From Gemmatimonadota bacterium (GTDB taxonomy: Bacteria; Latescibacterota; UBA2968): a stretch of 64,000 bases of DNA. Both the position numbers and the translations under genes were made by a program. The stretch covers positions 14,833 through 78,832 of the forward strand of contig JAPPAB010000099.1 in the NCBI GenBank assembly GCA_026705765.1, given 5' to 3'. The notes under the pieces were generated by a model. It was not told the origin of the DNA, ran no database searches, and was given only the letters and a program-made list of their open reading frames with translations. Of this stretch, positions 3,070-57,323 are shown one piece after another (within the stretch, counting starts at the first letter, position 1; each line of letters begins with the position of its first letter).

Positions 3070-4254
3070 TTAAATCTGTTCATACCACCGCACATTGCCC
3101 GTTGACATGCCGCTTGCGGCGATGTCCAATTTGCCGTTGCCGCTGAGATCTGCGATTGCCATTTGCCCCATGCCAATGCGGTTGTCAATTTGTTCAATGT
3201 GCCAGGTGTCTGTTTCTAAATTTTCTGGGCGATAGATGTTGAGGGCTGTGCCGGGTCCGTTGTATCCGGCGATGACTTCCAGTGCGTTGTCGCTGTCTAT
3301 GTCGCCACACCAGAGCGAATGTCCGCGGTTGAGTTTGTCGCTGATCAGATGCCGTTCCCAGGCGTCTGCTCGGATGTCGCCGGTGGCTTTGTACCAGACG
3401 AGTTCATTGCCGTGCCAGGGTTCGATAGAGAGTATTTCATTGATGCCATCGCCATCCATATCTACGGCAAAGGTTTCACTGCTTTCGCGGGGGCTTATGG
3501 TCCATCGGTTCCATTTTTCCTCGAATCCATCCCCTTTGGGCGGTTCAAACCAGATCAGGCCGTCACGCGTGCCGAGCAGTAAGTCCAGGCGGCCATCGCC
3601 ATCTACGTCGCATACGCTCAGGCCGTGGTTGAGTCTCAATTGCCCGTCGATTAACCGCTTTTCCCACGGTTCATTTACCGGGTCTTGTGGTATGCGGTAA
3701 CACCACAGTTCCCCCGGCGCATCAAAGTCGTTGATCTGGCTTCCCGGTCCTTGCAGTGTTGCGACAAATAGCAGGGGTTGATTGTTGACATCTACCATTG
3801 CAATGCGGTGTGAATAGGGTACCCAGTCGATGAAGTGCTGTGTCCAGATGTCGCTTTCTTCAGATGCTTGAAACCAGTGCAGATATTCCGGCGGTATCCG
3901 CTGTCTTCGTCCAAATCCGCTGCTCGCAATGACGTCTTTGCGACCGTTGCTCGTGATGTCGAATACCGATAGTGAGATGGTGCCGGGGTGCGCTTCTGAT
4001 ATGATTTGTTTTTCAAAATGGGGTCCTTCGTACAGGGCGATCATCGAGGTTCCCATAGAACCGGCTACGATGTCCAGGTATCCGTTGTTTGTGACATCGG
4101 CGACTGTCATGCCATAGGCGCTGCGGATGTTGTCGTCTATTTCGTGAATTATGAACATTTGTTTTCCTATTTTGACGGTTCTCCTTATCGGTCGTGGTTC
4201 AATATACCGCGTGTTCAGGGTAAAATCAAATGTAGATCGCCGAATTCGTGCCAC
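3070..4254 (-). CDS. FG-GAP repeat protein (VCBS/ASPIC-like)
   Basis: Repeated DxDGDGxxD calcium-binding FG-GAP motifs (DVDGDGRLDLL, VDMDGDGINEI, GDIDSDNALEV, ADLSGNGKLDI). The 5' end overlaps queA by 40 nt, so the true start is probably internal. Confidence 0.6.
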   Translation of the reverse strand: MARIRRSTFDFTLNTRYIEPRPIRRTVKIGKQMFIIHEIDDNIRSAYGMTVADVTNNGYLDIVAGSMGTSMIALYEGPHFEKQIISEAHPGTISLSVFDITSNGRKDVIASSGFGRRQRIPPEYLHWFQASEESDIWTQHFIDWVPYSHRIAMVDVNNQPLLFVATLQGPGSQINDFDAPGELWCYRIPQDPVNEPWEKRLIDGQLRLNHGLSVCDVDGDGRLDLLLGTRDGLIWFEPPKGDGFEEKWNRWTISPRESSETFAVDMDGDGINEILSIEPWHGNELVWYKATGDIRADAWERHLISDKLNRGHSLWCGDIDSDNALEVIAGYNGPGTALNIYRPENLETDTWHIEQIDNRIGMGQMAIADLSGNGKLDIAASGMSTGNVRWYEQI

Positions 4255-13787: not shown

Positions 13788-15104
13788 ATGAAGTCTTTGT
13801 CTGAACTTGAAGAGCGGATGGCTGAGGCGCAGCCGGGTGATGTGATTGGGCTGGCCGACGGCATGTATGATGGTGAGAGGTGCAGGCTCGCGGCAAGGGG
13901 GACCGCAGATCAGCCGATTGTTATTCGGGCGGAGGGTATGGGAAAGGCGGTTATAAAGGCGCCGTTGTTGCTGGTGGGAGATTATATCAGTCTTGTGGGG
14001 TTGCACTTTGTGGAAAAGGGGAGTGTGGAGATTCGGGGGCGGGGTTGTCGCATAAGTCGCTGTGTGATGACGGATGTGCAGGTTGGCAAGTGGATACGGG
14101 TGAGGGCAGAGAGTCGGGAAGTTGAGATTGATCGCTGCCGGTTTGAGAATAAGACCAATAATCTCGAGGAGACGCGCGGCTGCCAGTTGATGCAGATTTA
14201 CGTTCGCAATCAGGGCGAGAGGCACCTTGTTCACCACAATTATTTTGTCGATGTTCCGGATGGTAAGGAGAGCAATGGGTACGAGACGCTTCAGCTTATT
14301 ACGGAGGGGAATCCGTACGATCCAGAGCCGGGTGATTGTGAGACGGTTGTTGAGTACAATCTTTTTGTGCGTTGTAGTGGGGAGGCGGAGATTATTTCTG
14401 TGAAGTCCAATGGCAATATTCTCCGCAGGAATACGTTTCGCGATTGCCGGGGCGCGCTGGTGCTTCGGCATGGGGATGGCAATGTGGTGTCTGAGAATTT
14501 CTTTTTTGGCGAGGGCGAACGCCGGGCTGGCGGTGTGCGCTTGCAGGGGACGGATCAGGTTGTTGTGAATAATTTGTTCCATTCGCTCAATGCGTTTGGC
14601 GTGGGGATGATGGATGGGGCATCGGATGATCTCTATGTGCGGGTGGAGCGCGCGCTGATTGCGTTTAATACGTTTGTGGGGTGTAGTCCGGCGATGGATG
14701 TGGGGCTAAATCACAGCAGGTATCCCAATGGTACAGTGCCTAAAGATTGTGTGGTTGCGAATAATGCTTTTGTGAGATCCGATGGGACTGTGCGGCTGGT
14801 GCAGGACGATGAGCCAGTGAATTGGCGATGGGAGGGGAATGTGACAGATGGGGATTTGGGTATGCCCGATCGGGATGGGATAAAAACTGGGCGGGTCGAT
14901 GTGGATTATCTGCCCAATGGGGTTGTTGCACCGGGAGAGTCCAGTGGTTTGATTGGCAATGCCGAGGGGCATTATCCAGAGATAACGACGGATATTTTGG
15001 GGCATTCACGGGGCGAACAAAAGACGATTGGTTGCGTTGAGTTCCCGACGGGAACGGAGGACGGCGGTCCCTTAACTGCGGCAGATGTGGGACCAAGGTG
15101 GTAG
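13788..15104 (+). CDS. Right-handed parallel beta-helix polysaccharide lyase (PL6/chondroitinase-B-like)
   Basis: Repeated beta-helix rungs with NNxF/NNLFH motifs; start codon abuts the esterase stop. Confidence 0.5.
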   Translation: MKSLSELEERMAEAQPGDVIGLADGMYDGERCRLAARGTADQPIVIRAEGMGKAVIKAPLLLVGDYISLVGLHFVEKGSVEIRGRGCRISRCVMTDVQVGKWIRVRAESREVEIDRCRFENKTNNLEETRGCQLMQIYVRNQGERHLVHHNYFVDVPDGKESNGYETLQLITEGNPYDPEPGDCETVVEYNLFVRCSGEAEIISVKSNGNILRRNTFRDCRGALVLRHGDGNVVSENFFFGEGERRAGGVRLQGTDQVVVNNLFHSLNAFGVGMMDGASDDLYVRVERALIAFNTFVGCSPAMDVGLNHSRYPNGTVPKDCVVANNAFVRSDGTVRLVQDDEPVNWRWEGNVTDGDLGMPDRDGIKTGRVDVDYLPNGVVAPGESSGLIGNAEGHYPEITTDILGHSRGEQKTIGCVEFPTGTEDGGPLTAADVGPRW

Positions 15105-15106
15105 CA

Positions 15107-15439
15107 TCAATCAATAGAAACAACGAGGTTCAAGTTTTCTTTTCTTAGCGTGTCCTGCAAGGCAAGCTGCACCCAGAAGCTTTCTGGCTCGCCGAGTTGT
15201 CTGGCAATTTTGGCTGCCCTGCTGGGGCTTGGGATTCTTCTTTCTTTTTCTATATCACAAAGGCTTTGAGGGGAGATTCCCAAAAAATCAGCAAACGCTC
15301 GCTGGCTTTTTTCTTCTCCTGTTCGATAGCTGGCCAAGGCATTTCCAAATGTGAGACACCCAAAGTCTCTCTCCAGTTCAGAAGTTCCATATTGTTCTTT
15401 AGTAATCATGTTTATTGATCTCCTTAATTCCCAAATCAT
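15107..15439 (-). CDS. XRE-family helix-turn-helix transcriptional regulator
   Basis: HTH_3-like segment QRAFADFLGISPQSLCDIEKERRIPS. Sits at the edge of the low-GC islet, divergent from repeat copy A. Confidence 0.65.
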   Translation of the reverse strand: MIWELRRSINMITKEQYGTSELERDFGCLTFGNALASYRTGEEKSQRAFADFLGISPQSLCDIEKERRIPSPSRAAKIARQLGEPESFWVQLALQDTLRKENLNLVVSID

Positions 15440-15472
15440 ACGTCAAAATGACGTATGCAGCAAGTTCAACCT

Positions 15473-15527
15473 GCCTTGATATGTTTTGAAATGCGATTGA
15501 CAATATCGCGTTGTTGCTACATTTTTT
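15473..15527 (+). promoter_or_regulatory. Repeat copy A of a promoter/operator-like element (TTGACA 15497-15502, TACATT 15518-15523)
   Basis: gccttgatatgttttgaaatgcgATTGACAAtatcgcgttgttgcTACATT. Nearly identical to copy D and related to copies B and C. Confidence 0.5.
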
Positions 15528-15734
15528 ATCGGATAGTATGGATATAGTGAGAGATAGCGCAATACGATGATGCCCTGCATATCGCTTTGGCTTCGGTTGC
15601 AGAAGTCGATGTGTTGGTTAGCTGGAACTTCAAGCACATCGTACACTTTGACAAAATACGTCTATTCACCGCTGTGAACATTGAACTTGGCTATAAACCA
15701 TTACAGATATACTCTCCGCGTGAGGTGACTAATT

Positions 15735-15911
15735 ATGGAGACGAAAAAGACGTTTGATGCGGTTAAGATTGTGCGTCGGATTCGAGACGCGCACTATGAG
15801 CAACTCAAGGATAGAACGGTAAAAGAGCAATTGGCATTTTACCAAAGCAAGTCTCAGGCATTGCGTAACGACTTAAAAAAGAAATTGCAAGAGCATTATG
15901 ACGACGAATGA
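15735..15911 (+). CDS. Small hypothetical protein (58 aa), paralogue of the 62-aa ORF at 16943
   Basis: SD GAGGTGA 8 nt upstream of the ATG. Shares a VRxxRDxHxxQ core with the 62-aa protein. Below the 60-aa ORF-track cutoff. Confidence 0.5.
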   Translation: METKKTFDAVKIVRRIRDAHYEQLKDRTVKEQLAFYQSKSQALRNDLKKKLQEHYDDE

Positions 15912-16042
15912 TCCCATTGTTTCGGAAGTCCGAAAAGAGATGTGGCATAAATTTGGTCAAAAGGATTAGGCATAATTCAATATAGAAAAGGAGAGGAATC
16001 TCGATCTACTTTGATACCCATATTGTGGTGTGGTTATATGCT

Positions 16043-16090
16043 GGTCAAACCGAAATGCGGTTGACAAAATCGTGTCGTTACTACACTTTT
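16043..16090 (+). promoter_or_regulatory. Repeat copy B of the promoter/operator-like element (TTGACA 16061-16066, TACACT 16082-16087)
   Basis: gaaatgcgGTTGACAAaatcgtgtcgttacTACACTtttt upstream of the UPF0175 gene. Confidence 0.45.
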
Positions 16091-16132
16091 TCTTTCTAAG
16101 CGTAATTCAAATATGGATGAAACGGGGCGCGC

Positions 16133-16393
16133 ATGTTAAAAATTACATTTGAATGTCCAGATGATATTCTGCAGATCCTCAGTGAAACGCCTGAACAATT
16201 CGCCGAACAAGGCCGCATGCTCATCGCCGTCAAACTGTTTGAACTCGGACGTTTGTCATCGGGTCAGGCGGCTCGGTTTGCGGGCATGGAGCACGTTGTA
16301 TTTTTAGATGCCTTAAAATCCTACCAGGTATCTCCTCTCAATCTGACTCCAGAAGAATTGGCAAAGGATATTTCCAATGCTAGGAATCTGTAA
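16133..16393 (+). CDS. UPF0175 family protein (putative antitoxin)
   Basis: 86 aa with GRLSSGQAARFAGMEHVVFLDALKSY, matching the UPF0175 core. Classic partner of DUF3368/PIN-like proteins. Confidence 0.6.
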   Translation: MLKITFECPDDILQILSETPEQFAEQGRMLIAVKLFELGRLSSGQAARFAGMEHVVFLDALKSYQVSPLNLTPEELAKDISNARNL

Positions 16394-16467
16394 TGTCGAT
16401 GCGTTCCACAACCCTATTTCTACTGAATTGACCAACTGGCCTTGTTACATTGGATACGCCTCTTATT

Positions 16468-16956
16468 ATGAAACCAAAGGTATATATCGAAACCACCGTT
16501 ATTAGCTACTTGACAGCCCAACCTTCTCGCGATGTCGTAATTGCGGGACATCAACAGAGTACTCGAGATTGGTGGAAGAACGCAGCTGATCGGTTCGAAC
16601 TCGTAGCTTCACAACTGGTCCTTACCGAAGCCAGTGCTGGCGATCCGGAAGCTGCTCGTGCCCGCCTCGCAGCACTCAACTCACTGACGCTTCTCGACGC
16701 CACAGAGGAAGCCCTTGAATTAGCACAACAATTGGTCAACGCTGGCGTTGTGCCTGCAAAGGCAGCAGAAGACGCCGCTCATATTGCCATTGCAGTTGTC
16801 AACGGTATCGAATATTTGGTAACTTGGAATTATCGGCATATCGCCAATGCGACGATCCGATCACAAATCGAAACTGTATGTCGGAATGCGGGATTTGAAC
16901 CCGCGATCATCTGCACACCTGACGAACTCATGGAGCGTGATCATGACGACGAATGA
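16468..16956 (+). CDS. PIN-like (DUF3368/VapC-like) putative toxin
   Basis: N-terminal VYIETTVISYL, internal LTEASAGD, AAHIAIA, and C-terminal LVTWNYRHIAN resembling the VapC LxTRNxxDF motif. ATG at 16468 preferred over TTG at 16450. Confidence 0.5.
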   Translation: MKPKVYIETTVISYLTAQPSRDVVIAGHQQSTRDWWKNAADRFELVASQLVLTEASAGDPEAARARLAALNSLTLLDATEEALELAQQLVNAGVVPAKAAEDAAHIAIAVVNGIEYLVTWNYRHIANATIRSQIETVCRNAGFEPAIICTPDELMERDHDDE

Positions 16957-17131
16957 TCCCATTGTTTCGGAAGTCCGAGCAGTACGCGACAAACACGCTG
17001 CTCAATTCGGCTACGATCTCAAAGAGATATTCCGCGATATTAAGAAAAAACAAAAATCATCTGGTCGTAAATACGTGCAGTATCCTTCCCGTGCGGCTGT
17101 TGTAACAACTGTCACAACTTCAGACCAGTAG
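16943..17131 (+). CDS. Small hypothetical protein (62 aa), translationally coupled to the PIN-like gene
   Basis: ATGACGACGAATGA start/stop overlap with the upstream gene. Its first 12 codons are duplicated at 15899. Confidence 0.5.
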   Translation: MTTNDPIVSEVRAVRDKHAAQFGYDLKEIFRDIKKKQKSSGRKYVQYPSRAAVVTTVTTSDQ

Positions 17132-17147
17132 CTATAAAGGCAATATC

Positions 17148-17711
17148 ATGACAACGGTTTTTATTGGCGGTTCTCGTAGCATCACACGCTTGAACGACAC
17201 CATCAGGTCCACAGCGGATAACATCACGCGTCAGCATTTTGATATCGTTATCGGAGATGCAAATGGTGCTGATAAGGCTGTACAGAGCTATTTAGCAGAA
17301 AAAGCATATCGGAATGTTATCGTCTATTGTATGGATGATCACTGTCGGAACAACGTGGGAAGTTGGCCAGTAGAACAGATATATGCAGATAATCAGGTAA
17401 GGGACTTTGCATACTACACAACTAAGGATGCAAAGATGGCTCAAGTAGCGTCCTATGGCTTCATGATTTGGGATGGAAAGAGTAAGGGAACTTTGAACAA
17501 TATTCTCAACTTATTGCAGCTACAGAAGAATATCCTGGTTTATTTTTCGCCCGATAAGTCTTGTTATAAGCTCAAATCACTCAACGATCTTGATACACTC
17601 TTAGAAAAATGTAGCAGCGATATGATAGAAAAGTTCGAAAAGGAGTTCTCACTACTGGTCCCAGCGAGTTTAGAAGGTTCGAATTTTGAGATCGCATTTC
17701 CTGAAAGATAG
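17148..17711 (+). CDS. Stand-alone SLOG-domain protein (DprA/Smf- and LOG-like Rossmann fold)
   Basis: FIGGSRSI and VIGDANGADKAV resemble the DprA GSR...sGlA.GiD motif. MIWDGKSKGTLNNI resembles the LOG PGGxGTxxE motif. Local GC is low. Confidence 0.5.
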   Translation: MTTVFIGGSRSITRLNDTIRSTADNITRQHFDIVIGDANGADKAVQSYLAEKAYRNVIVYCMDDHCRNNVGSWPVEQIYADNQVRDFAYYTTKDAKMAQVASYGFMIWDGKSKGTLNNILNLLQLQKNILVYFSPDKSCYKLKSLNDLDTLLEKCSSDMIEKFEKEFSLLVPASLEGSNFEIAFPER

Positions 17712-17746
17712 GAACATGCCTTAATATGTTTTGAGATGTGGTTGAC

Positions 17747-17790
17747 AAAAGCGTACGTGTTAAACATTGACAAGTACGCTTTTTTGTTTT
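17747..17790 (+). terminator. Rho-independent terminator-like hairpin embedded in repeat copy C (TTGACA 17742-17747)
   Basis: AAAAGCGTAC-(17 nt loop containing TTGACAA)-GTACGCTTTT followed by TTGTTTTC. Lies 36 nt after the SLOG gene stop. Confidence 0.5.
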
Positions 17791-18112
17791 CTTTGACTTT
17801 CACAAGGTTATTGTGAAGTGGTCTATTTGCTTGGTTTTCCGATGAAGCAGTGCACAGCGCGTGAGTCCGTCTCGCAGCGGATGTTTTTATGGCATTTCAA
17901 CTGTGCAGGCCATTGTATAGCGCATTACCACAGAAACGATTTGCGCTGTGCCAGCCCCTCGGCGTTTGAGAGCGGCATTTTTTGCCTACTTTTTTTTGCT
18001 GTTGAAAAAAAGTAGGTCGCCGAAGGCATAAAAAGGAAAATATTTAAAAAGCTTTATACGTCGTTACACCACCACAAATGAATTATGCATATCCCTGAAA
18101 TAAGTATCCTCA

Positions 18113-18165
18113 AAAACCGAATTGCGGTTGACAATCTCGCGTTGTTGCTACATTGTTTATTTTTG
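18113..18165 (+). promoter_or_regulatory. Repeat copy D of the promoter/operator-like element (TTGACA 18127-18132, TACATT 18149-18154)
   Basis: gcgGTTGACAATctcgcgttgttgcTACATT. A 27-nt block is almost identical to copy A. Lies about 45 nt upstream of the enolase-superfamily start. Confidence 0.5.
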
Positions 18166-18197
18166 AGGAGTATTCCAATACGAGAAAAGGAAAATAT

Positions 18198-19406
18198 ATG
18201 AAAATTAAATCCGTCGAAGTCGTTCGCGTTGAACGGCCAGATACAAGCCAGGCCTCAACGGGGTCCGGTACGACGCTCGCTGCTTCAACAGGTGCAGCCC
18301 CGAGGACAAAGGGGTATCGAAAGGCGTGGCCCACGCAGATAGAGGTGGCAAATCCGATGTCCAGGTTCCCGCGGTTTAAGGCGCGTCGGCAGCTTTACGG
18401 TGCCAGACAGTGGCCCAGGTTCTCGGTTAAGGTGACCGCTGAAGATGGGACCTGGGGCCTCGGCACGTCGGCGGGACGCCCGGTTGCTATGGTGGTGGAA
18501 GATGCTTTCGCGCATATATTGGAAGGGGAGAGTTGCCTGGCTATTGAAAAGCTGTGGGATATGATGTTTCGCGTGTCCAAATCTTTTGGGACTGTGGGGA
18601 TTGCCTCGTTGGCGATTAGTGCTGTGGATCTGGCGCTGTGGGATCTGGCGGGGAAATTGCAGGGCAAGCCCGTTTATGAACTTCTGGGCGGTCCGGCGCG
18701 CGATCGTTTGTTTGTGTACGCGACGGGTGATGATGTGGATTGGTACAAGGAGTTGGGGTTTCGGGCGTTTAAGTTGCCCTGTCAATACGGTCCGGTTGAT
18801 GGGTTGTGGGGATTGGGAGAGAACGAGAGGCGAATAGCCGAGGTCCGCGAGTTGATCGGCGATGATTGCGATCTCATGCTGGATTGTTATATGGCTTTGG
18901 ATGTGGAATATACCGCGCGTTTGGCCAATCGCCTGCGTCCTTATAATCTGCGGTGGATGGAAGAGTGCCTGATTCCCGAGGATGTTGGGGGGCATATTGA
19001 ACTCAAGAAACGCCTGCCGTGGTTGACGCTTGCCAGTGGCGAGCATTTTTACACGCCGTATCCCTACCAGTTGATGATCGAAAATCGGTGTCTCGATATT
19101 CTCCAGCCCGATATTCAGTGGGTGGGGGGTTTGACTGCTTGTGTCAAAATTTGTAATATGGCTGCCGCTGCGGGGCTGGAGGTTTGTCTGCACGGCGGGG
19201 GACGCGATGCGTACGGTCAGCATTTGAGCTGGGCAATGCCCAATACCCCCTGGTGTGAGTATTTTATCGGTTCTGATCCGGGGGTACCACTTGAAGAAGT
19301 GGCGCAACCCGGCGCGTGCGTGCCGCACAATAGCTATCTGGCGTTTGCGCCGACAGGTCCGGGTTTTGATCTGGGGATTGAAGAGGATTGGTTGGTGCCG
19401 TTTTAA
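18198..19406 (+). CDS. Enolase-superfamily enzyme (mandelate racemase/muconate lactonizing enzyme family)
   Basis: MR/MLE N-terminal capping domain and TIM-barrel ligand region; start MKIKSVEV with SD GAAAAGGAAA. Confidence 0.65.
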
Positions 19407-19423
19407 TTTTAAAAGAGGAAAAA

Positions 19424-20257
19424 ATGGATAAGACAATTATTTCTGTGGCGGTTGTGGGGTCGGGTCCTACGAAGGATATGAATCCGGCTGTGCCTTATAC
19501 GCCAAAGGAGATTGCAGAAGCAGCTATTGAGTGCCATAAGGCGGGTGCGGCTATTACGCATATCCATGTGCGCGATCCCGAGACGGGTATTGTGTGTTCG
19601 CGGATTGAGCTTTTCAAAGAAGTGGTGGACCGGATTCGGCAAGCTTGTGATATTGCGATTAATTTGACGACGAGTGGGGGAAATATTAAAGGGGAAAATA
19701 TTATTGAGGAGCGGCTTGAGCCGGTTGCGCTGAAGCCCGAGATTTGCTCTCTGGATATCGGTTCGGTAAATTTTGGCACTCGGGTGTTTATGAATCCACC
19801 CGAATGGGGTGTTGCCGCGGCAAAGCGCATGCGCGAGCATCGCGTTAAGCCGGAGATTGAGGTTTTCGATGCCGGTCATATTCGCCAGGCGCGGTATATG
19901 ATTGCGGAGGGGTTGTTCGAAGATCCCCCGTTTGTCCAGTTGTGTATGGGCCCCGGATGGGGTATTGAAGCTACGCCTGAGAACATCGTTTTTATGAAAA
20001 ATCTCTTGCCGCCCGATGTGATCTGGTCCGCTCTGGGTGTGGGAAAAGCACAGTTGCCGATGATTACTATGGCTTTTCTCATGGGGGGGCATATACGGGT
20101 GGGTTTTGAAGATAATATTTATCTTCGGAGAGGTGTTTTGCTCAAGAGCAATGCACAGATGGTCGATCTCGCGGCGAGTCTTGTGGAGAAACTTCAGGGC
20201 GAGATTGCCACGCCAGATGATGCCCGGGAGATGCTGGGGCTTACGTATCCGGGGTGA
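19424..20257 (+). CDS. BKACE family (3-keto-5-aminohexanoate cleavage enzyme-like, DUF849)
   Basis: [45 protein letters not shown], typical of the BKACE TIM barrel. Confidence 0.65.
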
Positions 20258-50578: not shown

Positions 50579-52216
50579 TTATGTGGCGGCATAGCTCAGC
50601 TGGTAGAGCAGTGGAATCATAATCCATGGGTCGGGGGTTCGAGTCCCTCTGCCGCTACCAAACGTATCGTCTCGCAGAACTTCTGACCTGTCCGGTTCAT
50701 GACAGGAACGAAATAAAGCGAGTTGAATCTCATCAGGGGTATAAATCAGTTGGTTGATGTGTAGCCTTAACAGGTCTTTCTGTTCCTCTGGTGTGGCTTC
50801 ATTATATAATTCTTCAAAGGTCATAAGTTTTTGCTTCATTTGAGCAACACTTATGGCCTTTTGTTTTGCCTCTGCCAGAGTTGCCTCGTTCTCCATCATC
50901 TCCTGTTCTATTTGGCTTTTTTGTTCTTCGAGGGCAATAATTTTCTGACTGATGGTTTTAAGGCCGACCTGCTGACCAGCGATGCTTTCCACCAGGACAT
51001 CCAGCTTCTTCTCAATATCTTTGAGGTTCCTGCGATGATTTTCCTGTGCTTGCCTTAAGGTTTTCATACGCTCCGATTGGCTTGTCGTAGCTTCTGCGAT
51101 AAGCTCTTGAACACGTTTTTGATCATCACTGAGTTGAATTAACCGATCAGCGACTACTTGTTCAAGGGCCGGTGCAGACACCGGCTTCATTTTGCATTCT
51201 TCGTTTCCACGATGGATTTTACAGGTGCAATGGTAGTAGAAATAGGGCTTTTTTTGGTGGTTTCGAGCCTGCGAAGGGGTCATGTGAGACTGGCACCAGC
51301 CACATTTAATCAGACCTTGAAGTAAGAAGGGGTGAAGGTTTTGTTTCCTCCCTCTTGTCCCAGAGACTCGGTTCGTTTCTATAACGGCTTGCACTTTATT
51401 CCACAATTCCATCGGGACAAGAGGATCATGCTGGCCTTCATATACCTTACCTTTGTGAGTAATTTTTCCAATATAAAATTCATTTTGGAGCATACGCATA
51501 ATCTGTGTCTTATTGAATTTTTTGCCAGAATAGACCTTATCCCTTCTCGACACATACGATTTTGTACGATAGCCTTTTTCATTTATGATTCGGGCTACGG
51601 CACGAAAACTTTGCTCTTTGACGTACGTCTGAAAAATTAAGATCACCAGTTCTCGTTCTGCTTCATTGGGCTTTAGAACGCCCTTGTTGTCCGGATCAAT
51701 GTCGTATCCAAGGAGGTGCTGTCCGCCATTACGTAGGCCCTTCTCAGCACGCCACTGCATTTTTTCTTTCGTGCGCTCACTGGTACGTTCTCTTTCTAAT
51801 TCAGCCGTTGCGAGAGAAATTGAGAGAGCAAACCGACCCATAGCGGTTGAGGTATCCCAATTCTCATTGATTGAAATGAATATGGTTTCGTTTTCTTCTA
51901 AAAATTCGTGGAATTGATAAAAGTCGATGATAGACCGGCTGACGCGATCAATTTTTGTGCATAACACCGCGTCAATCTTACCCTGCTCAATGTCTCGAAC
52001 CATTCGCTTGTATCCAGGGCGGTCTAAATTCTTACCCGATTTGCCTTCCTCACGATAGATTGCCACCGCTTTCCATTCTTCTTCTGGCGATGTGGAATCC
52101 TTGATTTCGACGTACTTCTGAAGCAGATCAATTTGGGTGTCCAAACTGCCATTTTTCACTTCGGCTTGCAGGTCGGTTGAGACCCGTGCATAAAGGCCAC
52201 ATTTTACCATATCCAT
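50579..52216 (-). CDS. Large serine recombinase (resolvase/invertase catalytic domain, recombinase domain, zinc ribbon)
   Basis: N-terminal YARVSTDLQ catalytic Ser motif, recombinase domain, Cys-rich zinc ribbon (CGWCQ...CTC), coiled coil. The last ~26 codons run antisense through the tRNA-Met gene with no in-frame stop. Confidence 0.8.
   Translation of the reverse strand: MDMVKCGLYARVSTDLQAEVKNGSLDTQIDLLQKYVEIKDSTSPEEEWKAVAIYREEGKSGKNLDRPGYKRMVRDIEQGKIDAVLCTKIDRVSRSIIDFYQFHEFLEENETIFISINENWDTSTAMGRFALSISLATAELERERTSERTKEKMQWRAEKGLRNGGQHLLGYDIDPDNKGVLKPNEAERELVILIFQTYVKEQSFRAVARIINEKGYRTKSYVSRRDKVYSGKKFNKTQIMRMLQNEFYIGKITHKGKVYEGQHDPLVPMELWNKVQAVIETNRVSGTRGRKQNLHPFLLQGLIKCGWCQSHMTPSQARNHQKKPYFYYHCTCKIHRGNEECKMKPVSAPALEQVVADRLIQLSDDQKRVQELIAEATTSQSERMKTLRQAQENHRRNLKDIEKKLDVLVESIAGQQVGLKTISQKIIALEEQKSQIEQEMMENEATLAEAKQKAISVAQMKQKLMTFEELYNEATPEEQKDLLRLHINQLIYTPDEIQLALFRSCHEPDRSEVLRDDTFGSGRGTRTPDPWIMIPLLYQLSYAAT
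50585..50660 (+). tRNA. tRNA-Met (anticodon CAT; elongator Met or tRNA-Ile2 type, probably not initiator)
   Basis: Manual fold: acceptor GGCGGCA, D-arm GCTC/GAGC, anticodon stem GTGGA/TCCAT with loop ATCATAA, T-arm GGGGG-TTCGAGT-CCCTC, CCA. G1-C72 pairing and absence of a 3xGC anticodon stem argue against initiator. Confidence 0.8.
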
Positions 52217-52314
52217 CCCCTTTGCTCTGTATTGTTTTATTTGGGAATTATATATAAATATATCTCCCGTCTATTTATTACAAATATACTTAAAAACAAT
52301 GCTTTATGCAACAT

Positions 52315-52524
52315 TTAATCACTGCCTTCACTTCCAGAAATACTGTTCAGAGTTGGTTTTTCCAACCTCCTCATATAAATGGTTTGACAGAGTTCTTTCA
52401 AGTGATCCATCCGTTCTTCGGGGGATAATTGGGCATAGGGGTTTTGGAGATTTGGAGCACCTTCTTCTATGACCGTAACAGGGATATTGTCCCAGTCGAT
52501 TTTTTGTCGTTTTGCCATAATCAC
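52315..52524 (-). CDS. Small hypothetical protein
   Basis: 69-aa ORF in an AT-rich region. Confidence 0.3.
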   Translation of the reverse strand: MIMAKRQKIDWDNIPVTVIEEGAPNLQNPYAQLSPEERMDHLKELCQTIYMRRLEKPTLNSISGSEGSD

Positions 52525-52594
52525 ACCTTTCTTTTTCTCAGGTGTGGTTTTTCCTACTCCCTGATATTGTTTTTAATGATTTGTTTTTGGAGTT

Positions 52595-52759
52595 TTATTT
52601 GTGCTGCACATCTTGTTTCAGAGCGTCTATTTTAATGGACTGCTCTTTCACAATATTGATTAACTCACCTTTCTGAATACGCAGTGTAATTGACCCCCAA
52701 AAAGAGGTGTCGAGTTCTTTCAGAAGTTGCGAAATTTCTTTGATTACCTGTGTTTTCAT
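52595..52759 (-). CDS. DUF2292 (YezD-like) small protein
   Basis: 54 aa MKTQVIKEISQLLKELDTSFWGSITLRIQKGELINIVKEQSIKID, with SD GGAG 7 nt upstream. The WGSITLxIQxGxLxxI core resembles YezD. Not in the ORF track (under 60 aa). Confidence 0.45.
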   Translation of the reverse strand: MKTQVIKEISQLLKELDTSFWGSITLRIQKGELINIVKEQSIKIDALKQDVQHK

Positions 52760-53633
52760 TTGTTGATCTCCTTCAGCGGCGTTGGCATTCAGCTTTGCCC
52801 ATTCGTCATCAAAGCCGCCTGATCTTGTCCAAATACGCCTTCACTTGGCCTCGAAAGATGCCGTGCTGGTGGCCCGGAAATAACTTGTCTGTCAACGCAT
52901 TTGCCGCCCGTTGAGATACACCCGCCTTTTTCTTATCGACTCCCAAAAGCCTTCTGATCTTGTCCTCATTGTAATCTGTCCAATTATCAAACCGATCCAG
53001 TGCCCAGCGATATGTTCAATTTTCACCATGCCCAAATAACCTCATTTGATAACAAGCCTGCCTGTCCAGTGCCCGACCACGCCGCCTGGTGGTCCTCTCT
53101 TTTTCCCTCTCAATCTCAATCACTTGGTTCAATGCCTGAGCAGATTTTGCCAAGCTCGCCGCATCAATTCGATAAGGCATTGTCGCCCATTGGATCACAA
53201 GTTTCTGTAAAGTCATTTTTGCCCTCACAGGTTGGGGGGTTTTTGGTTGCCGTTGTCCTTTGGTTTTTGCGCTATATTTTTCGACGCTCCGCGCCGGTCA
53301 GTTTGACTCTCGGTTTCCATAAGCTCGAGTACGCCGCCATCCCGAAATCTGTCTCCCTTCACCAACAGGTGCTATAGGTGTGCGAGGATCTTCATCATGT
53401 GCATCTTCCTCCTCGTACTCTGTACCTCCGCAGTGACTGCGGAGAGGGTTTTTGAAGTCAAGATTTTCCCAGGGACTCACACAGTGCGTTTTATATTGAC
53501 GCCTACAATCTTCTATTCAGTACTTCTTATATTATGTCCACCTCTAGAGCGGGTATCCTACCAGACGTAGAGGTGGTAAGTTTCAACCAGATGGTCGCAC
53601 GGAAGCCTACCACCTCTAGAGCGGGTATAGGTG

Positions 53634-54161
53634 TTAGAGGGGCGGAAAGGGTTTAAATTGTTTGTATTCCTGATGGCGGATCGCATCTGCTGCATAGATC
53701 GCTTCATTCCGCTCAAGCAACTTCGCTCGCTCTTCAGCCCTCAAGGCTTTGGCAGCGGCAAAGTCATCCATCCACTGGTGTCTGCGCAGGTAGTGTACAG
53801 ACGATACATTACCGGTACTAAAGAAGCCTTTTCCCTTTCCTTTTCGCCTTATGCGACCAATAAGCCCTAGGTCTAAGAGTTTTTTGGTTGCCTTCTCGAC
53901 GGTTGTCTTGCTCTTGGCACCTATGTCCTGAGCGATTGTTACATTGCTTACCCAGGTGAAAGCCCCATTTCCATATCCCATAGACATACTGCAATAGGTC
54001 TTGAGGACGCCATAGACACATTTTGCACTGTAGGGCACTTCATTGACGGGACGGCACATCAGCCACTTGGGTGTCATAAAAAACTCTTCATCGGACACAT
54101 TCAGGGCCTTGTCGTCCTTTTCTATCTCCTCCTGATAATACTTCATGACATCACTAAACAT
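53634..54161 (-). CDS. Hypothetical protein with probable winged-helix DNA-binding region
   Basis: Central helix-turn-wing segment (VTIAQDIGAKSKTTVEKATKKLLDLGLIGRIRRKG); basic region follows. Confidence 0.4.
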   Translation of the reverse strand: MFSDVMKYYQEEIEKDDKALNVSDEEFFMTPKWLMCRPVNEVPYSAKCVYGVLKTYCSMSMGYGNGAFTWVSNVTIAQDIGAKSKTTVEKATKKLLDLGLIGRIRRKGKGKGFFSTGNVSSVHYLRRHQWMDDFAAAKALRAEERAKLLERNEAIYAADAIRHQEYKQFKPFPPL

Positions 54162-54546
54162 CTCTCTTTCCCTCTTGTTGTACCCCCGACCGGGTACGGA
54201 GACAGATTAAAAAAACATTTTTATTTGCTAATTTCATTTTCGTTCGTATCTTAACATTGAATACTCAATGGGGGTTCTTTGGGTGTTCTTTGCAAGCTAT
54301 TCTCTGTGCCGTCGGCTCCCTACAAGCCTGACGGCACTTTTTTTACCTCTCGTCGGATGATAAAAAACATAGGTCGTTGCAACTCAAATTTCAACCCCAA
54401 AAATAATTTGTCGCAAATTTCCCACTTTTTCTGATAGAAAAACTTTTTTCTTGTCTGCTGTGGAAAGTTCTGCGTATATTTACGTATATACACAATAGGA
54501 ATTTTCTAAGTATCGGTCAAGTCAAACACGAGAGAGGAAGCCAAGT

Positions 54547-55590
54547 ATGGACAACGCATTGACCACCAGGCCGCACAGCGCGGTCGATAAAACGTCCCAG
54601 ACACTTCAACCGGGATCCATCGCCCACAACACAAAGCGGATGTATTGCCACGCTACCACGCACTTTTTGAATTGGTGCGAGAAGATCGACCAGGCCGCAC
54701 AAACCAGCGGCGACCTCGACGGGGTACTTATGCAAGCCGCCGTGCGCTTTCACGGCAAACATGTCACGCCCGAAGAAATCAATCAATATCTGACACATCT
54801 GCACCTCAATGGCAAAAGCCCTGCATCCATCGCTAGCGTCCTGACAGCGATCAAATTCATGGCCCGACACACAGGCACGTCCATTGACTTTTTGCCAGCA
54901 GACACAACGCTGAAGGGCATCAAGCGCAATGCCGAGGCGCAAGCGCGAGGTCGCGGCCAAGCCACTGGTATCAAAGTCGATGACGCTATAACGATGGCGA
55001 CCATCGCAGACAGTCCCGCGCATACCTCACCGACCGACAGCAAAGAGACACCAGAGAAGGCATGGATCCGCCGAGCGCGTGATGCCGCTATCATTCTCAC
55101 AATGAGCAATGGACTTTTGAGGATTTCAGAGGTTGGCGCGATCCTATGCGAGCATATCAGTACTCGAGAAAACGGATCGGGCAGTCTTCTAATCCCGCGC
55201 TTAAAGACTGACCAAGAAGCCGAAGGGCGAGAAGTCTATCTGCAAAAGCGGACAATCAAAGCAATCGAAAAATACCAGCGGCTCTCTGGCGTGAGTGACG
55301 GCCCACTGTTCAGGCGCATCTATCAAAACAGCAAAATGGGCAAAGACGCGCTCGGTATCACTGCGATACGGGATATGATCAAAGACGTGGCCGAAAAAGC
55401 GCAAATAGATGTTACCGGAATTTCAGGCCACAGCTTCAGGGTGGGAACAGCGCAAACACTCGTGGAGAAAAAAGCGACAATGCTACAACTCCAGACGGCT
55501 GGCAGGTGGAAAGATACGCGAATGCCAGCCAGATATACCGAGAAAGAGGAATTGGCAAAAGGTGTGATTGCCACAATCCTAGGGGAATAG
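54547..55590 (+). CDS. Tyrosine-type site-specific recombinase/integrase
   Basis: GHSFRVGTAQ (HxxR) and C-terminal RMPARYTE catalytic Tyr region; N-terminal core-binding domain. Confidence 0.8.
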   Translation: MDNALTTRPHSAVDKTSQTLQPGSIAHNTKRMYCHATTHFLNWCEKIDQAAQTSGDLDGVLMQAAVRFHGKHVTPEEINQYLTHLHLNGKSPASIASVLTAIKFMARHTGTSIDFLPADTTLKGIKRNAEAQARGRGQATGIKVDDAITMATIADSPAHTSPTDSKETPEKAWIRRARDAAIILTMSNGLLRISEVGAILCEHISTRENGSGSLLIPRLKTDQEAEGREVYLQKRTIKAIEKYQRLSGVSDGPLFRRIYQNSKMGKDALGITAIRDMIKDVAEKAQIDVTGISGHSFRVGTAQTLVEKKATMLQLQTAGRWKDTRMPARYTEKEELAKGVIATILGE

Positions 55591-55662
55591 AAAAGGGACC
55601 AAACAATTTGAATTGTTCAAACGTATCAACCTCAAAATTCAGAGTGAGCGCACAAAAAAGTC

Positions 55663-55699
55663 TGGCGAGCCATTCGATTAAAATGGCTCGCCAGACTCA
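55663..55699. repeat. Perfect 15-bp inverted repeat (stem-loop)
   Basis: GTCTGGCGAGCCATT-cgattaa-AATGGCTCGCCAGAC, preceded by an A-run. Confidence 0.7.
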
Positions 55700-55973
55700 G
55701 CACGACACAATTTTGTATTGACTTCATGCTGGCAAATGTACAGTGTTTACAAGAGCAAGTTTTGGCTTCAACTGTTCAGCATTCGCAATAACACTTTCGA
55801 CTCCAGAACTGATATTGCATGTCTCTTTGATGTTGCTGTTCTATACGCTAGAATTTCCAGAATAGATCGTGCTGGTCTAATTCATTGTCCAGCAATTCAT
55901 TTTGTAATCGCACAGGCTCAGGCAACCGACACAGCGATTCGATAAGCAGAAACAAACTTTTAGCTCAATGAGT

Positions 55974-56633
55974 TTATATTTCAAATCCTCCTCTTTTATC
56001 AATGCGAGAAATAACACCTTTAAATTCAAAAATTATTTTAATCTTCTCCAATATCATTAACATAAATATCATTCGTAAAGATTCTTTAGGAAACACCGCC
56101 TCAATTTCTTCTATCAATTTTCGTTTACCATCGTCTCTGTGGTATTCGTACGCATTTAACCATGCCATCAAAACTTCCTCACTGTTGACCATCAATTCTC
56201 CATAAGTAATTCTCAACGATTTCCGAAAATGTTTATTAGAAAACACATCTTTGACAGATCGGAAGTATTGAGTCATCAATGGGTGTCTCATATTACAACT
56301 AAGCAAATCTACCATCTTATTAAAATAAAAAGGCTCTGGATACCTCCTACTCCCCTGAAGTATAAATGGTCTCAACCTATGTAAGATTCCTGAACGACGT
56401 AAAATATCAATATTTGATTTCTCCACCAATTCAACACTATCATCATCAAAATCTATCTTCACGCTCCCACTAACTTTCAAACCTCCACATCTCTGAATCA
56501 AATTAAAAAATTCATCTACTTCATTACAGAACCCTAATAGCGTTTCCCATGCCTCACCAGGAATATTTCCTCTAATTGTTTTTCCAGAGGACTCACCTTT
56601 TATGGTAATACTGTACGATTTATCCATTATCAA
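55974..56633 (-). CDS. Hypothetical protein, very AT-rich cargo gene
   Basis: 219 aa with no recognisable domain; about 30-35% GC versus about 58% for the host. Confidence 0.45.
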   Translation of the reverse strand: MIMDKSYSITIKGESSGKTIRGNIPGEAWETLLGFCNEVDEFFNLIQRCGGLKVSGSVKIDFDDDSVELVEKSNIDILRRSGILHRLRPFILQGSRRYPEPFYFNKMVDLLSCNMRHPLMTQYFRSVKDVFSNKHFRKSLRITYGELMVNSEEVLMAWLNAYEYHRDDGKRKLIEEIEAVFPKESLRMIFMLMILEKIKIIFEFKGVISRIDKRGGFEI

Positions 56634-56828
56634 TACCCAATTTCTCTTTCGCTTCTTCTGACTTAACAGGCGTCACTACCACCTTTGCCAATTCCTCAGC
56701 CGTATAAGGAAATTGAGGCCACCCTACCTCCTCATTTCCCTGCTCTTTACACTACTAATCACCTATACTATAAACCAAAATCAATCACCCCAAAATCACC
56801 GGCACTATTGAATATAAGTCCCATTTGT

Positions 56829-57323
56829 TTAGCTATCGCCTCCGGTATATTTCTTCGCTCGTTTACCTGTCTGTTTTATGTCAATAAAGAACGATGTTGC
56901 AAGGAATCCAGTGATAAAAGAGAATAGCCAGAGAATGAAATAAAACACATTGCCATTGTCTCGATAACGCTTCAAATCTTCCGTTTCTTTGTCAAATTCC
57001 GCTTTCTTTCTTTCGATTTCCTCTTGCTCTTTCTTTCTCGCCTCTATTTTTAGTTTGGGCACGTCATATTTTCGCATAAATGTATATGCGACCTCTTTTT
57101 CCTCAGTACCCCTCTTAAACCATCGGTATTCACCAGCCAGAATTTGATATGGCTCTCTGCCGCTATGTGGTTCTCTAATAATCGCCTTTGCCATAATGCG
57201 AAGATTGAGATTAGGCGAGTCTATGTATTCCCTCATATCCTCTCGGATAGACTCATTGATTTGTTCTCGTGTCATCACATCCACTTTCTGAAGGAAATTA
57301 CTGGAAAGCCCATTACTCAGCAA
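56829..57323 (-). CDS. Hypothetical coiled-coil protein with C-terminal transmembrane segment, AT-rich cargo gene
   Basis: KEQEEIERKKAEFDKETEDLKRY coiled coil and FYFILWLFSFITGFLATSFFI transmembrane helix; the start may be the internal Met (MTREQ). Confidence 0.4.
   Translation of the reverse strand: MLSNGLSSNFLQKVDVMTREQINESIREDMREYIDSPNLNLRIMAKAIIREPHSGREPYQILAGEYRWFKRGTEEKEVAYTFMRKYDVPKLKIEARKKEQEEIERKKAEFDKETEDLKRYRDNGNVFYFILWLFSFITGFLATSFFIDIKQTGKRAKKYTGGDS

What the first reader, a model, noticed from the sequence alone, without database searches (positions are those of the whole stretch)
15473..18165. Four copies of a promoter/operator-like element (TTGACAA-N15-TACA(T/C)T with conserved flanks) within 2.7 kb
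Copies A (15473-15527), B (16043-16090), C (17722-17790) and D (18113-18165) share gccttRatatgttttgaRatgYgRTTGACAA and/or TCGCGTTGTTGCTACATT. A and D are nearly identical over 27 nt. Each lies upstream of a + strand gene or operon: the 58-aa gene, the UPF0175 operon and the enolase gene. Copy C is fused to a terminator hairpin. This level of conservation at non-coding sites suggests a shared operator, possibly for the adjacent XRE regulator, or a small mobile promoter cassette. One copy drives a core metabolic gene (enolase superfamily), which is unusual.
Basis: seen in the sequence. Interest (0 to 1): 0.6.

Follow-up and report, generated by a model that had tools for sequence, protein, structure and literature searches.

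The report
Reused promoter module in toxin-antitoxin island
The four repeats are copies of one roughly 70-base promoter module that an uncultured Latescibacterota lineage reuses in front of unrelated toxin-antitoxin operons, and the copy at the edge of this inserted island now appears to drive a sugar-acid dehydratase operon that the island cut off from its upstream gene; this is a tidy example of promoter reuse, not a new kind of system.

Summary
The repeats are real: three full copies (A, B, D) and one decayed copy (C) that now forms a terminator hairpin. No other copy occurs in the 64-kb window.

Across 185,579 species genomes, a strict 25-nt pattern hit only six Latescibacterota MAG chromosomes, at two chromosomal hotspots. 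The element ("E", about 70 nt) always points toward the downstream gene. It sits upstream of at least five unrelated type II toxin-antitoxin families and of a rhamnonate-dehydratase-like gene.

E has the same invariant TTGACA -35 as the window's two tRNA promoters. Among orthologous copies only the -35 to -10 stretch is constrained; the flanks drift at the synonymous rate. The long similarity between copies therefore reflects recent copying or gene conversion, not an operator.

The array lies in a low-GC, zero-skew island. One outgroup lineage has the lyase and dehydratase genes 20 nt apart with no E.

The XRE gene looks like an orphan HigA-type antitoxin with its own palindromic operator, so the XRE-operator idea is not supported. 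E fails the tests for integron attC, MITE, inverton and Rfam RNA.

Best label: a new family of putative mobile promoters in an eroding TA/defence hotspot. Promoter activity is inferred, not shown.

The parts
15470..15554 (+). E copy A. TTGACA 15497-15502; TACATT 15518-15523 (N15) or CATTTT 15520-15525 (N17). This is the DUF433-cassette type of leader, whose gene has been deleted in the window.
   Evidence: nhmmer 57.9 bits. Orthologous to L003_1338 and L006_2691, where it precedes a DUF433 gene.
16038..16118 (+). E copy B. TTGACA 16061-16066; TACACT 16082-16087 or CACTTT 16084-16089. It lies 72 nt upstream of the UPF0175 ATG at 16133.
   Evidence: nhmmer 66.7 bits; distance. The same E+UPF0175 unit occurs in L001, L002, L005 and L009.
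17713..17792 (+). Copy C, a decayed E. The left arm and TTGACAAAAGCG are kept, followed by hairpin 17747-17783 and a T-run. It is read as an intrinsic terminator closing the B operon and insulating D.
   Evidence: D4, I7; 12.4 bits; MFE -13.2, z = -3.5. Conserved at the same place in L003 to L007.
18110..18186 (+). E copy D. TTGACA 18128-18133; TACATT 18149-18154 or CATTGT 18151-18156. It lies 70 nt upstream of the dehydratase ATG at 18198 and forms the right edge of the island.
   Evidence: nhmmer 67.3 bits. Present upstream of the orthologous gene in L002 to L007 and absent in outgroups L013 to L016, L025 and L026.
15105..18178 (.). Inserted low-GC, zero-GC-skew island lying between the lyase stop codon and about 20 nt upstream of the dehydratase ATG.
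   Evidence: GC 0.42-0.48 and skew about 0, against 0.52-0.55 and 0.2-0.4 in the flanks. The empty site in L013/L014 has a 20-nt spacer.
15107..15409 (-). XRE/HTH_3 gene (100 aa), probably an orphan HigA-type antitoxin and not the regulator of E.
   Evidence: Pfam HTH_3; gene call in L010. The homologue in L008 follows a weakly HigB-like ORF.
15435..15463 (-). XRE's own promoter-like site: TTGCTG-N17-TATGAT. Its spacer is the palindrome ATACGTCAAAATGACGTAT (15438-15456), a candidate XRE operator.
   Evidence: Read from the sequence. The palindrome is unique in the window and is found only in the conspecific loci L010 and L011.
15587..16055 (+). Eroded cassette remnants downstream of A: the C-terminal fragment of a p162 paralogue (15587-15757), a 58-aa gene (15735-15911), a chimeric remnant joining the sm62 N-terminus to a Phd C-terminus (15898-15971), and the 5' fragment of a PIN gene (about 16001-16055) fused to E(B).
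   Evidence: (D3).
16133..17711 (+). Operon downstream of B: UPF0175 antitoxin (16133-16393); its DUF3368/PIN toxin truncated after about 8 codons (16377-16505); p162 (16468-16956); a 62-aa gene (16943-17131); p187 (17148-17711).
   Evidence: Pfam; gene calls in L010; intact UPF0175+DUF3368 pair in L002 and L017. p162, sm62 and p187 have no family hits.
18198..20257 (+). L-rhamnonate-dehydratase-like enolase-superfamily gene (18198-19406) and BKACE gene (19424-20257). This is the host operon now placed behind E(D).
   Evidence: Pfam; names of homologues; gene calls.
13788..15104 (+). Chondroitinase-B-like polysaccharide lyase gene, the left flank of the island. It is the immediate upstream neighbour of the dehydratase gene in outgroup L013/L014.

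Best explanation
**What E is.** E is a portable sigma-70-type promoter module of about 70 nt. It consists of:
- an A/T-rich upstream arm;
- an invariant -35 TTGACA;
- a -10 that is either CAYTKT at the organism's usual 17-nt spacing or TACAYT at 15 nt;
- about 30 nt of initial transcribed leader.

**Where it occurs.** One clade of Latescibacterota, probably sponge-associated, has this module in front of many unrelated type II toxin-antitoxin operons. Those operons pile up, erode and get shuffled at two chromosomal hotspots.

**What each window copy does.**
- Copies A and B are taken to start transcription of TA remnants or operons.
- Copy C is a dead copy that has turned into the terminator of the B operon.
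- Copy D, at the island's right edge, supplies the promoter for the rhamnonate-dehydratase-like/BKACE operon.
- That operon was probably once co-transcribed with the upstream polysaccharide lyase gene, before the island split them.

**Why the copies are alike.** They are recent copies or gene-conversion partners of one another. They also serve as short homology tracts at which cassettes are exchanged. Similarity is not explained by the whole 70 nt being a protein-binding site.

**Shown:** the repeats; the family's distribution; its orientation; the diversity of downstream genes; the island's composition; an empty site in one outgroup lineage; and the selection pattern.

**Inferred:** promoter activity; the transcription start sites; the ancestral lyase-dehydratase operon; and recombination as the copying mechanism.
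For: **Promoter features**
- The -35 TTGACA is invariant in all copies.
- It is identical to the -35 of both tRNA promoters in the window: TTGACA-N17-TATTTT and TTGACA-N17-GATATT.
- N17 is the commonest TTGAC[AT]-xAxxxT spacing in the window.
- With N17, the key -10 positions A2 and T6 are conserved in at least 90% of copies.
- All 19 full copies have the orientation of the downstream gene.
- TTGACA-to-start distances are 70-72 nt for three unrelated genes: UPF0175, the dehydratase and DUF2442.

**Reuse in front of unrelated genes**
- Downstream genes are UPF0175+DUF3368/PIN, Phd+PIN, DUF433+YgiT zinc finger, DUF2442/DhiA-like+DUF4160/DhiT, a weakly RelB-like antitoxin+PIN, and the dehydratase.
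- UPF0175 homologues at 76-84% identity in other genomes have no E.
- Dehydratase orthologues at 72-89% identity have no E.
- E is therefore clade-specific, not inherited together with these genes.

**Selection pattern among seven orthologous E(D) copies**
- The -35 to -10 stretch has 6 variable columns against 12.9 expected from 4-fold sites (P = 0.007).
- The arms have 4/8 and 19/42 variable columns, about the neutral 0.45.

**Recent copying or conversion**
- Paralogous copies in front of different genes are 93-95% identical over 63 nt.
- One pair is 100% identical over 42 nt between genomes.
- Orthologous E(D) copies average 85% and 4-fold sites 81.5%.

**Island and hotspot**
- The island has low GC and zero GC skew.
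- Cassette content differs between genomes whose flanks are about 90% identical.
- Synteny breakpoints fall in E 23 of 95 times against 6.9 expected (the events are not independent).
- The empty site in L013/L014 has the lyase stop codon 20 nt from the dehydratase ATG.

**Rarity**
- There are only 11 strict matches in 185,579 species genomes, all in six Latescibacterota MAGs at two hotspots.
- No match was found in JGI metagenomes, viral contigs, plasmids or phages.
Against: - No transcript data exist. The simple sigma-70 scan did not call any E copy.
- The -10 is weak under either reading: 3/6 at N17 and 4/6 at a suboptimal N15.
- A second candidate, TTRCTA-N17-TAtAAT about 20 nt downstream, is near-consensus in only one copy (L005_1919). 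The start site is therefore unresolved.
- The spacer TCGYGTYGTTRC is well kept across paralogues. Among orthologues its constraint is not significant (4/15 variable against 6.7 expected, P = 0.13), so an additional factor binding there cannot be excluded.
- The ancestral lyase-dehydratase adjacency rests on one outgroup lineage (two contigs). Other outgroups have different neighbours.
- Most synteny breakpoints (72 of 95) lie outside E, often at microhomologies. E-E recombination is only one of several rearrangement routes.
- Whole genomes could not be scanned with the profile, so divergent copies elsewhere may have been missed.
Confidence: 0.68

Rival explanations
1. E is a shared operator, or regulon signature, for one transcription factor (the adjacent XRE protein or another). 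That factor would co-regulate the TA operons and the dehydratase operon, and the sequence would be kept by selection for factor binding.
For: Conservation extends beyond the two hexamers into the spacer (TCGnnTnGTT) in nearly all copies. An XRE gene lies divergently next to copy A in the window and in L003, and is present in L004.
Against: - E has no dyad or clear direct-repeat symmetry.
- XRE has its own palindrome-containing promoter, which is absent from E.
- XRE is absent from the E-bearing stretches held for L002, L006 and L007.
- It looks like an orphan HigA.
- Among orthologues the spacer is not significantly constrained and the arms are neutral.
- Paralogues are more alike than orthologues. 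That pattern indicates recency or conversion, not selection.
Confidence: 0.08
2. E is the recombination site of an integron-like cassette system. Cassettes would be captured and excised at E by a dedicated site-specific recombinase, and the promoter-like look would be secondary.
For: - Same-orientation arrays of E+cassette units occur at two hotspots, with cassettes shared between hotspots and genomes in different orders.
- Some E copies look hybrid. In L002 and L006, E(D) has the left arm typical of other cassettes.
- Breakpoints are enriched in E.
- E forms the exact right edge of the island.
Against: - No tyrosine or serine recombinase lies in or next to the arrays within 6-10 kb.
- The window's recombinases are about 32-37 kb away in a tRNA-linked element, and the tyrosine one is not an integron integrase.
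- E copies A and B form no significant hairpin on either strand (z = -0.65 to -1.4).
- E has no R''/R' (RYYYAAC...GTTRRRY) boxes.
- The left junction of homology varies from about -7 to -25 relative to TTGACA, rather than sitting at a fixed crossover point.
- Most rearrangement junctions are outside E, at microhomologies inside genes.
- E variants travel with the downstream gene, as a promoter would.
Confidence: 0.08
3. The copies are inert relics. One TA promoter region was duplicated together with its cassettes, the genes behind it were later replaced or eroded, and the copies, apart from perhaps D, no longer do anything.
For: The window's array is heavily eroded. It contains truncated toxins, chimeric ORFs, and a copy A that now faces a pseudogene. 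The arms evolve neutrally.
Against: - The -35 is invariant in all 19 full copies, and the -35 to -10 core is under constraint.
- Intact TA pairs follow E in sister genomes.
- C shows what a truly dead copy looks like.
Confidence: 0.1
4. E is a transcribed cis-acting RNA element (a leader or riboswitch-like structure, or a leader peptide) and not a promoter.
For: Conservation continues about 30 nt downstream of the candidate -10. A 14-codon ORF (MRLTKSRCCYTFCL) can be read in some copies.
Against: - No Rfam family matches at E<=1.
- Copies A and B show no significant fold.
- The downstream part evolves at the neutral rate among orthologues.
- The ATG of the mini-ORF is missing in the dehydratase-linked copies.
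Confidence: 0.04

Closest known systems
Putative mobile promoters (PMPs; 'promoter propagation/reuse in prokaryotes', Matus-Garcia, Nijveen and van Passel 2012; PMC3488235, PMC3575422)
   Same: Highly similar 50-100-nt upstream regions lie in front of non-homologous genes within a genome and across related genomes. The family is small. No IS element or riboswitch accounts for it. The presumed effect is rewiring of transcription.
   Different: - Here the family is tied almost entirely to toxin-antitoxin cassettes packed into two hotspots, not scattered around the chromosome.
- One copy has been co-opted by a host metabolic operon split by the island.
- Within the window itself the pairs fall just short of the PMP cut-off of at least 50 nt at 80% identity or more. 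Sister genomes meet it.
Sedentary chromosomal integrons and CALIN arrays (attC-bounded cassettes, rich in TA modules)
   Same: Same-orientation arrays of small cassettes are separated by a conserved repeat of about 70 nt that sits just upstream of the next ORF. TA modules are abundant, and cassette content varies between close relatives.
   Different: - E lacks the attC hairpin and the R''/R' boxes.
- No IntI or other recombinase is adjacent.
- The repeat belongs to the downstream gene and looks like a promoter.
- Homology junctions are not at a fixed position.
Defence/TA islands at conserved chromosomal hotspots between core genes
   Same: A variable, low-GC set of TA and abortive-infection-type genes (AbiJ-like in L001, TnpB in L002) lies between conserved core genes and differs between close relatives.
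   Different: To my knowledge, a shared promoter module heading the individual cassettes is not a described feature of such hotspots.
Outward-facing promoters donated by IS elements or MITEs
   Same: Inserted DNA brings a promoter that drives the adjacent host gene.
   Different: E has no terminal inverted repeats, no target-site duplication and no transposase linked to it.

Membership tests
Putative mobile promoter (PMP) family | Two upstream regions of the same genome align over at least 50 nt at 80% identity or more | tested here: inconclusive
   Window pairs fall short: A-D 38 nt at 92%, A-B 40 nt at 85%, B-D 67 nt at 76%. Sister genomes meet the cut-off: the two L009 copies are 93% over 63 nt and the two L002 copies are 82% over 63 nt.
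Putative mobile promoter (PMP) family | The downstream CDSs are not homologous | tested here: met
   UPF0175, DUF433, Phd, DUF2442, a weakly RelB-like antitoxin and an MR_MLE dehydratase.
Putative mobile promoter (PMP) family | The upstream CDSs are not homologous | tested here: met
   Upstream of A is XRE, of B a PIN-gene fragment, and of D non-coding sequence following the C terminator. Homology begins only 7-25 nt before TTGACA.
Putative mobile promoter (PMP) family | Located within about 150 nt upstream of a translation start | tested here: met
   TTGACA lies 72 nt (B) and 70 nt (D) from the ATG. A now faces a pseudogene.
Sigma-70-type promoter | A -35 and a -10 hexamer at 16-18 nt spacing | tested here: inconclusive
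   The -35 is perfect (TTGACA). At N17 the -10 is CAYTKT (A2 and T6 present, 3/6). At N15 it is TACAYT (4/6). The scan tool called none of the copies. The tRNA promoters of the same window use TTGACA-N17.
Sigma-70-type promoter | A transcription start site mapped downstream of the -10 | not testable with these tools
   No transcript data are available.
Integron attC site / CALIN | An imperfect inverted repeat that folds as a single-strand hairpin (R''-L''/L'-R') | tested here: not met
   DNA folds of A and B on both strands give z = -0.65 to -1.4. No inverted repeat lies within E.
Integron attC site / CALIN | An integron integrase (IntI) with attI next to the array; IntI is optional for CALIN | tested here: not met
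   No recombinase lies within 6-10 kb of the arrays. The window's tyrosine recombinase at 54.5 kb scores far below every NCBIfam cut-off and does not match the integron-integrase model.
Operator of the adjacent XRE/HTH_3 regulator | A dyad-symmetric site shared by the copies, and co-occurrence with the regulator gene | tested here: not met
   E has no dyad. The only strong palindrome, 15438-15456, lies outside E and is unique in the window. XRE is missing from several E-bearing loci.
MITE / IS-derived repeat | Terminal inverted repeats and a target-site duplication | tested here: not met
   No terminal inverted repeats are shared by the copies. The left boundary of homology is variable.
Invertible promoter (inverton) | Flanking inverted repeats, both orientations observed, and an invertase nearby | tested here: not met
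   All 19 full copies have the same orientation relative to the downstream gene. Only D has a 9-nt flanking inverted repeat. No invertase lies nearby.
Known RNA family (Rfam 15) | A covariance-model match | tested here: not met
   Only two tRNAs reach gathering score in the window. At 15000-18400 with E<=1 there is only a spurious 18-bit tmRNA fragment.

The most novel reading that the evidence does not exclude
E doubles as the crossover site of a recombinase-independent, or unknown-recombinase, cassette-exchange system. In this reading, promoter-headed TA or defence cassettes are moved between two dedicated chromosomal hotspots, and between strains, by recombination at E. The promoter would itself be the 'att' site, making this a functional analogue of an integron. 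Every captured cassette would arrive already expressed, and the last E would keep the downstream host operon expressed.
Probability: 0.12. Interest if true: 0.7.

Novelty: new member of a known kind. Interest (0 to 1): 0.33.

Why it matters
**What it shows if the reading is right.** This would be a clear natural example of promoter reuse. One promoter module is copied in front of at least five unrelated toxin-antitoxin families. It also restores expression of a metabolic operon that an inserted island had split.

**Practical use.**
- It offers a candidate promoter for a phylum with no cultured members and no mapped promoters.
- It provides a sequence tag (the E profile) for finding variable TA/defence hotspots in these symbiont genomes.

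**Limits.** It does not open a long-standing question. Its value is as a well-documented case and as a caution: long conserved non-coding repeats near a regulator gene need not be that regulator's operators.

Tried and rejected
- **Wider searches for E.** A JGI metagenome scan and a viral contig scan with relaxed E patterns gave no match. BLAST of the E consensus against plasmids and phages gave no match. E is therefore not a known mobile promoter cassette. The source lineage is absent from those collections.
- **Rfam.** Nothing was found at gathering or E-value thresholds.
- **attC, hairpin or MITE reading.** Rejected by the folds and the repeat search.
- **Leader-peptide reading (14-codon ORF in E).** Rejected because its ATG is missing in the dehydratase-linked copies.
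- **E belongs to the upstream cassette (a 3' 'polite' promoter).** Rejected because E variants co-vary with the downstream gene across genomes and hotspots.
- **E travels with the UPF0175 cassette.** Rejected. UPF0175 homologues at 76-84% identity in other genomes have unrelated upstream regions.
- **Function of p162, sm62, sm58 and p187.** Pfam, NCBIfam, PADLOC and PDB sequence searches gave nothing meaningful.
- **Bacteroidota-type promoter (TTTG / TAnnTTTG).** I considered this from memory. I set it aside because the window's tRNA promoters are canonical TTGACA-N17.
- **Breakpoint enrichment in E.** It is real but inflated, because the pairwise comparisons are not independent and the conserved right flank starts at E(D). 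I treat it as descriptive only.

Full report
**1. Observation**

- The repeats are present as described. The 31-nt degenerate core GCGRTTGACAANNTCGYGTYGTTRCTACAYT occurs three times (15493, 16057, 18124), with none expected by chance.
- The left-arm motif occurs at 15473 and 17718. TCGCGTTGTTGCTACATT is identical in A and D.
- Copy C shares the left arm and TTGACAA with A. It then diverges into a 17-bp-arm hairpin (17747-17783) followed by a T-run. That hairpin is the only strongly structured copy (z = -3.5).
- A profile HMM built from 14 copies finds only these four sites in the 64-kb window.
It is TTGACAA-N14-TACAYT.

**2. The element is longer and lineage-specific**

- One strict pattern scan covered one genome from each of 185,579 species. 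It returned 11 matches in nine loci, all in six Latescibacterota MAG chromosomes.
- Relaxed patterns found nothing in JGI metagenomes or viral contigs. BLAST of the consensus found nothing in plasmids or phages.
- Aligning all copies (19 full plus 2 C-type) gives a module of about 70 nt.
- Its consensus is tgaAATgCGgTTGACAAnaTCGcgTnGTTgctACAyttTtTgTTTnTnagg..tAATTcAAaTA.
- Its left edge is variable, starting 7-25 nt before TTGACA.
- Every copy has the orientation of the gene that follows it.

**3. What follows the copies**

Downstream genes belong to unrelated families:
- UPF0175 with DUF3368/PIN;
- Phd with PIN;
- DUF433 with a YgiT zinc finger;
- DUF2442 (DhiA-like) with DUF4160 (DhiT);
- a weakly RelB-like antitoxin with PIN;
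- an L-rhamnonate-dehydratase-like MR_MLE gene followed by BKACE.

The loci fall into two chromosomal hotspots:
- Hotspot 1 lies between a chondroitinase-B-like lyase gene and the dehydratase gene (window, L002 to L007).
- Hotspot 2 lies between a TPR/membrane protein gene and a threonine-synthase-like (PALP) gene (L001, L008, L009).
- Other inhabitants include an AbiJ-like gene and a TnpB, but no site-specific recombinase.

**4. The window's array is an eroding island**

- The stretch 15.1-18.1 kb has GC 0.42-0.48 and about zero GC skew. The host flanks have GC 0.52-0.55 and skew 0.2-0.4.
- Flanks are about 90% identical between genomes, but the content between them differs in every genome.
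- In the window, copy A (the DUF433-type leader) now abuts the C-terminal half of a p162 paralogue.
- The UPF0175 antitoxin's DUF3368 toxin is cut after about 8 codons.
- A Phd 3' end and a PIN 5' end are stranded between the 58-aa gene and copy B.
- Copy B's apparent left arm is in fact PIN coding sequence joined at the microhomology AAACCGAAA.
- Synteny breakpoints are enriched in E (23/95 against 6.9 expected). Most lie elsewhere, and the test is inflated by non-independence.

**5. Why a metabolic gene has a copy**

- All seven genomes of the clade have E(D) about 70 nt upstream of the dehydratase ATG.
- In an outgroup lineage with an 87% identical dehydratase (two contigs), the lyase stop codon is 20 nt from the dehydratase ATG and there is no E.
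- The last ~18 nt before the ATG, including the ribosome-binding site, resemble those of the window.
- Other outgroups (72-89% identity) have other neighbours and no E.
- The simplest reading is that the island landed in the short spacer of a lyase-dehydratase operon. E(D), at the island's right edge, now supplies transcription, and the C terminator just upstream insulates it.
- This is an inference from a single outgroup lineage.

**6. Promoter or operator?**

- The window's two tRNA genes are preceded by TTGACA-N17-TATTTT and TTGACA-N17-GATATT.
- N17 is the dominant TTGAC[AT]-xAxxxT spacing in the window.
- The generic scan did not call any copy, so the -10 is weak or differently placed.
- I compared seven orthologous E(D) copies with 4-fold degenerate sites of the adjacent gene, of which 44.6% are polymorphic.
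  - The -35 to -10 block has 6/29 variable columns (P = 0.007).
  - The 8 nt upstream have 4/8 variable columns and the 42 nt downstream have 19/42, which is neutral.
  - The spacer alone is not significantly constrained.
- Mean pairwise identity is 85% for E(D) and 81.5% for 4-fold sites.
- Copies in front of different genes reach 93-95% over 63 nt. One pair is 100% identical over 42 nt between genomes.
- So the long similarity between copies is due to recent copying or gene conversion, with selection acting only on the core promoter. That is the signature of a propagated promoter, not of a 70-nt operator.

**7. The XRE gene**

- It is a 100-aa HTH_3 protein.
- Its homologue in L008 follows a weakly HigB-like ORF, so it is probably an orphan HigA-type antitoxin.
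- It has its own promoter-like site, TTGCTG-N17-TATGAT. The spacer of that site is the perfect palindrome ATACGTCAAAATGACGTAT (15438-15456).
- That palindrome is unique in the window and absent from E.
- XRE is missing from several E-bearing loci.

**8. Other readings tested**

- attC/integron: no hairpin, no R boxes and no integrase.
- MITE: no terminal inverted repeats.
- Inverton: only one orientation is seen.
- RNA element: no Rfam hit, no fold, and neutral evolution of the transcribed part.
- Travelling with UPF0175: homologues elsewhere lack E.

**9. Comparison with what is known**

- The closest described category is the 'putative mobile promoter' of Matus-Garcia et al. 2012 (PMC3488235; criteria read).
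- The family meets those criteria in sister genomes. It is borderline on alignment length within the window.
- The arrangement resembles an integron array in layout but fails its defining features.
- I found no paper describing this element, nor TA promoter sharing in Latescibacterota.

**10. Verdict**

- This is a real, non-random, clade-specific promoter module reused across TA cassettes and co-opted by a host operon.
- It is a new member of a known kind.
- Promoter activity and the copying mechanism remain inferred.
- Interest is modest (0.33).
- The most novel reading left open is that E is itself the cassette-exchange site, at about 12% probability.

Noticed in passing
window 17843-18018 (+); L005 unflipped 4020-3832: A non-coding segment of about 175 nt with sharp borders is about 90% identical to a segment in L005. 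It is absent at the orthologous spot in L003 and L007. In L005 it lies about 75 nt downstream of an E copy. The two copies share no ORF. It ends in a strong hairpin, GCCTACTTTTTTTT...AAAAAAAGTAGG. RNA fold z is -2.2 on the + strand and -3.3 on the - strand, and there is no Rfam hit. It may be a small-RNA cassette or a MITE-like remnant.
   Followed up: partly
window 15435-15463 (-): The XRE gene has its own promoter-like site, TTGCTG-N17-TATGAT. Its spacer is the perfect palindrome ATACGTCAAAATGACGTAT (15438-15456). The palindrome is unique in the window and is present only in the conspecific loci L010 and L011.
   Followed up: partly
window 50579-57500: A tRNA-adjacent low-GC stretch carries two recombinase genes. 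One is a large serine recombinase (50579-52216, -) next to the tRNA at 50585-50657. The other is a tyrosine recombinase (54547-55590, +) that is not an integron integrase. This is probably a separate integrative element, about 32 kb from the E array.
   Followed up: partly
L018 5001-7164; L022 to L024: In more distant genomes, UPF0175/Phd/PIN cassettes (76-80% aa identity) sit between a rotamase gene and another MR_MLE (383 aa) gene, without E. This is a second case of TA cassettes lodged directly upstream of an enolase-superfamily gene.
   Followed up: no
window 18108-18116 and 18160-18168: Copy D is bracketed by a 9-nt inverted repeat, CCTCAAAAA / TTTTTGAGG (DNA fold z about -3). Only a weaker ATCCTCA/TGAGGAT version appears in some orthologues. 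Its significance is unknown.
   Followed up: no
window 16468-17711: p162 (PIN-like by context), the 62-aa gene and p187 have no Pfam, NCBIfam or PADLOC match and no meaningful PDB sequence match. They nevertheless recur as cassette genes in several genomes.
   Followed up: partly
whole window: The host genome has an unusually strong positive GC skew (0.2-0.45) across about 45 kb of + strand genes. The skew flips near 51 kb. This makes foreign inserts such as the TA island easy to see.
   Followed up: no
L002 (reoriented copy used) 3102-4226; L005 (reoriented) 1-537: An IS605-family TnpB (OrfB_IS605 with a Cas12f1-like TNB domain) sits in hotspot 1 of two sister genomes, upstream of the E cassettes.
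   Followed up: no
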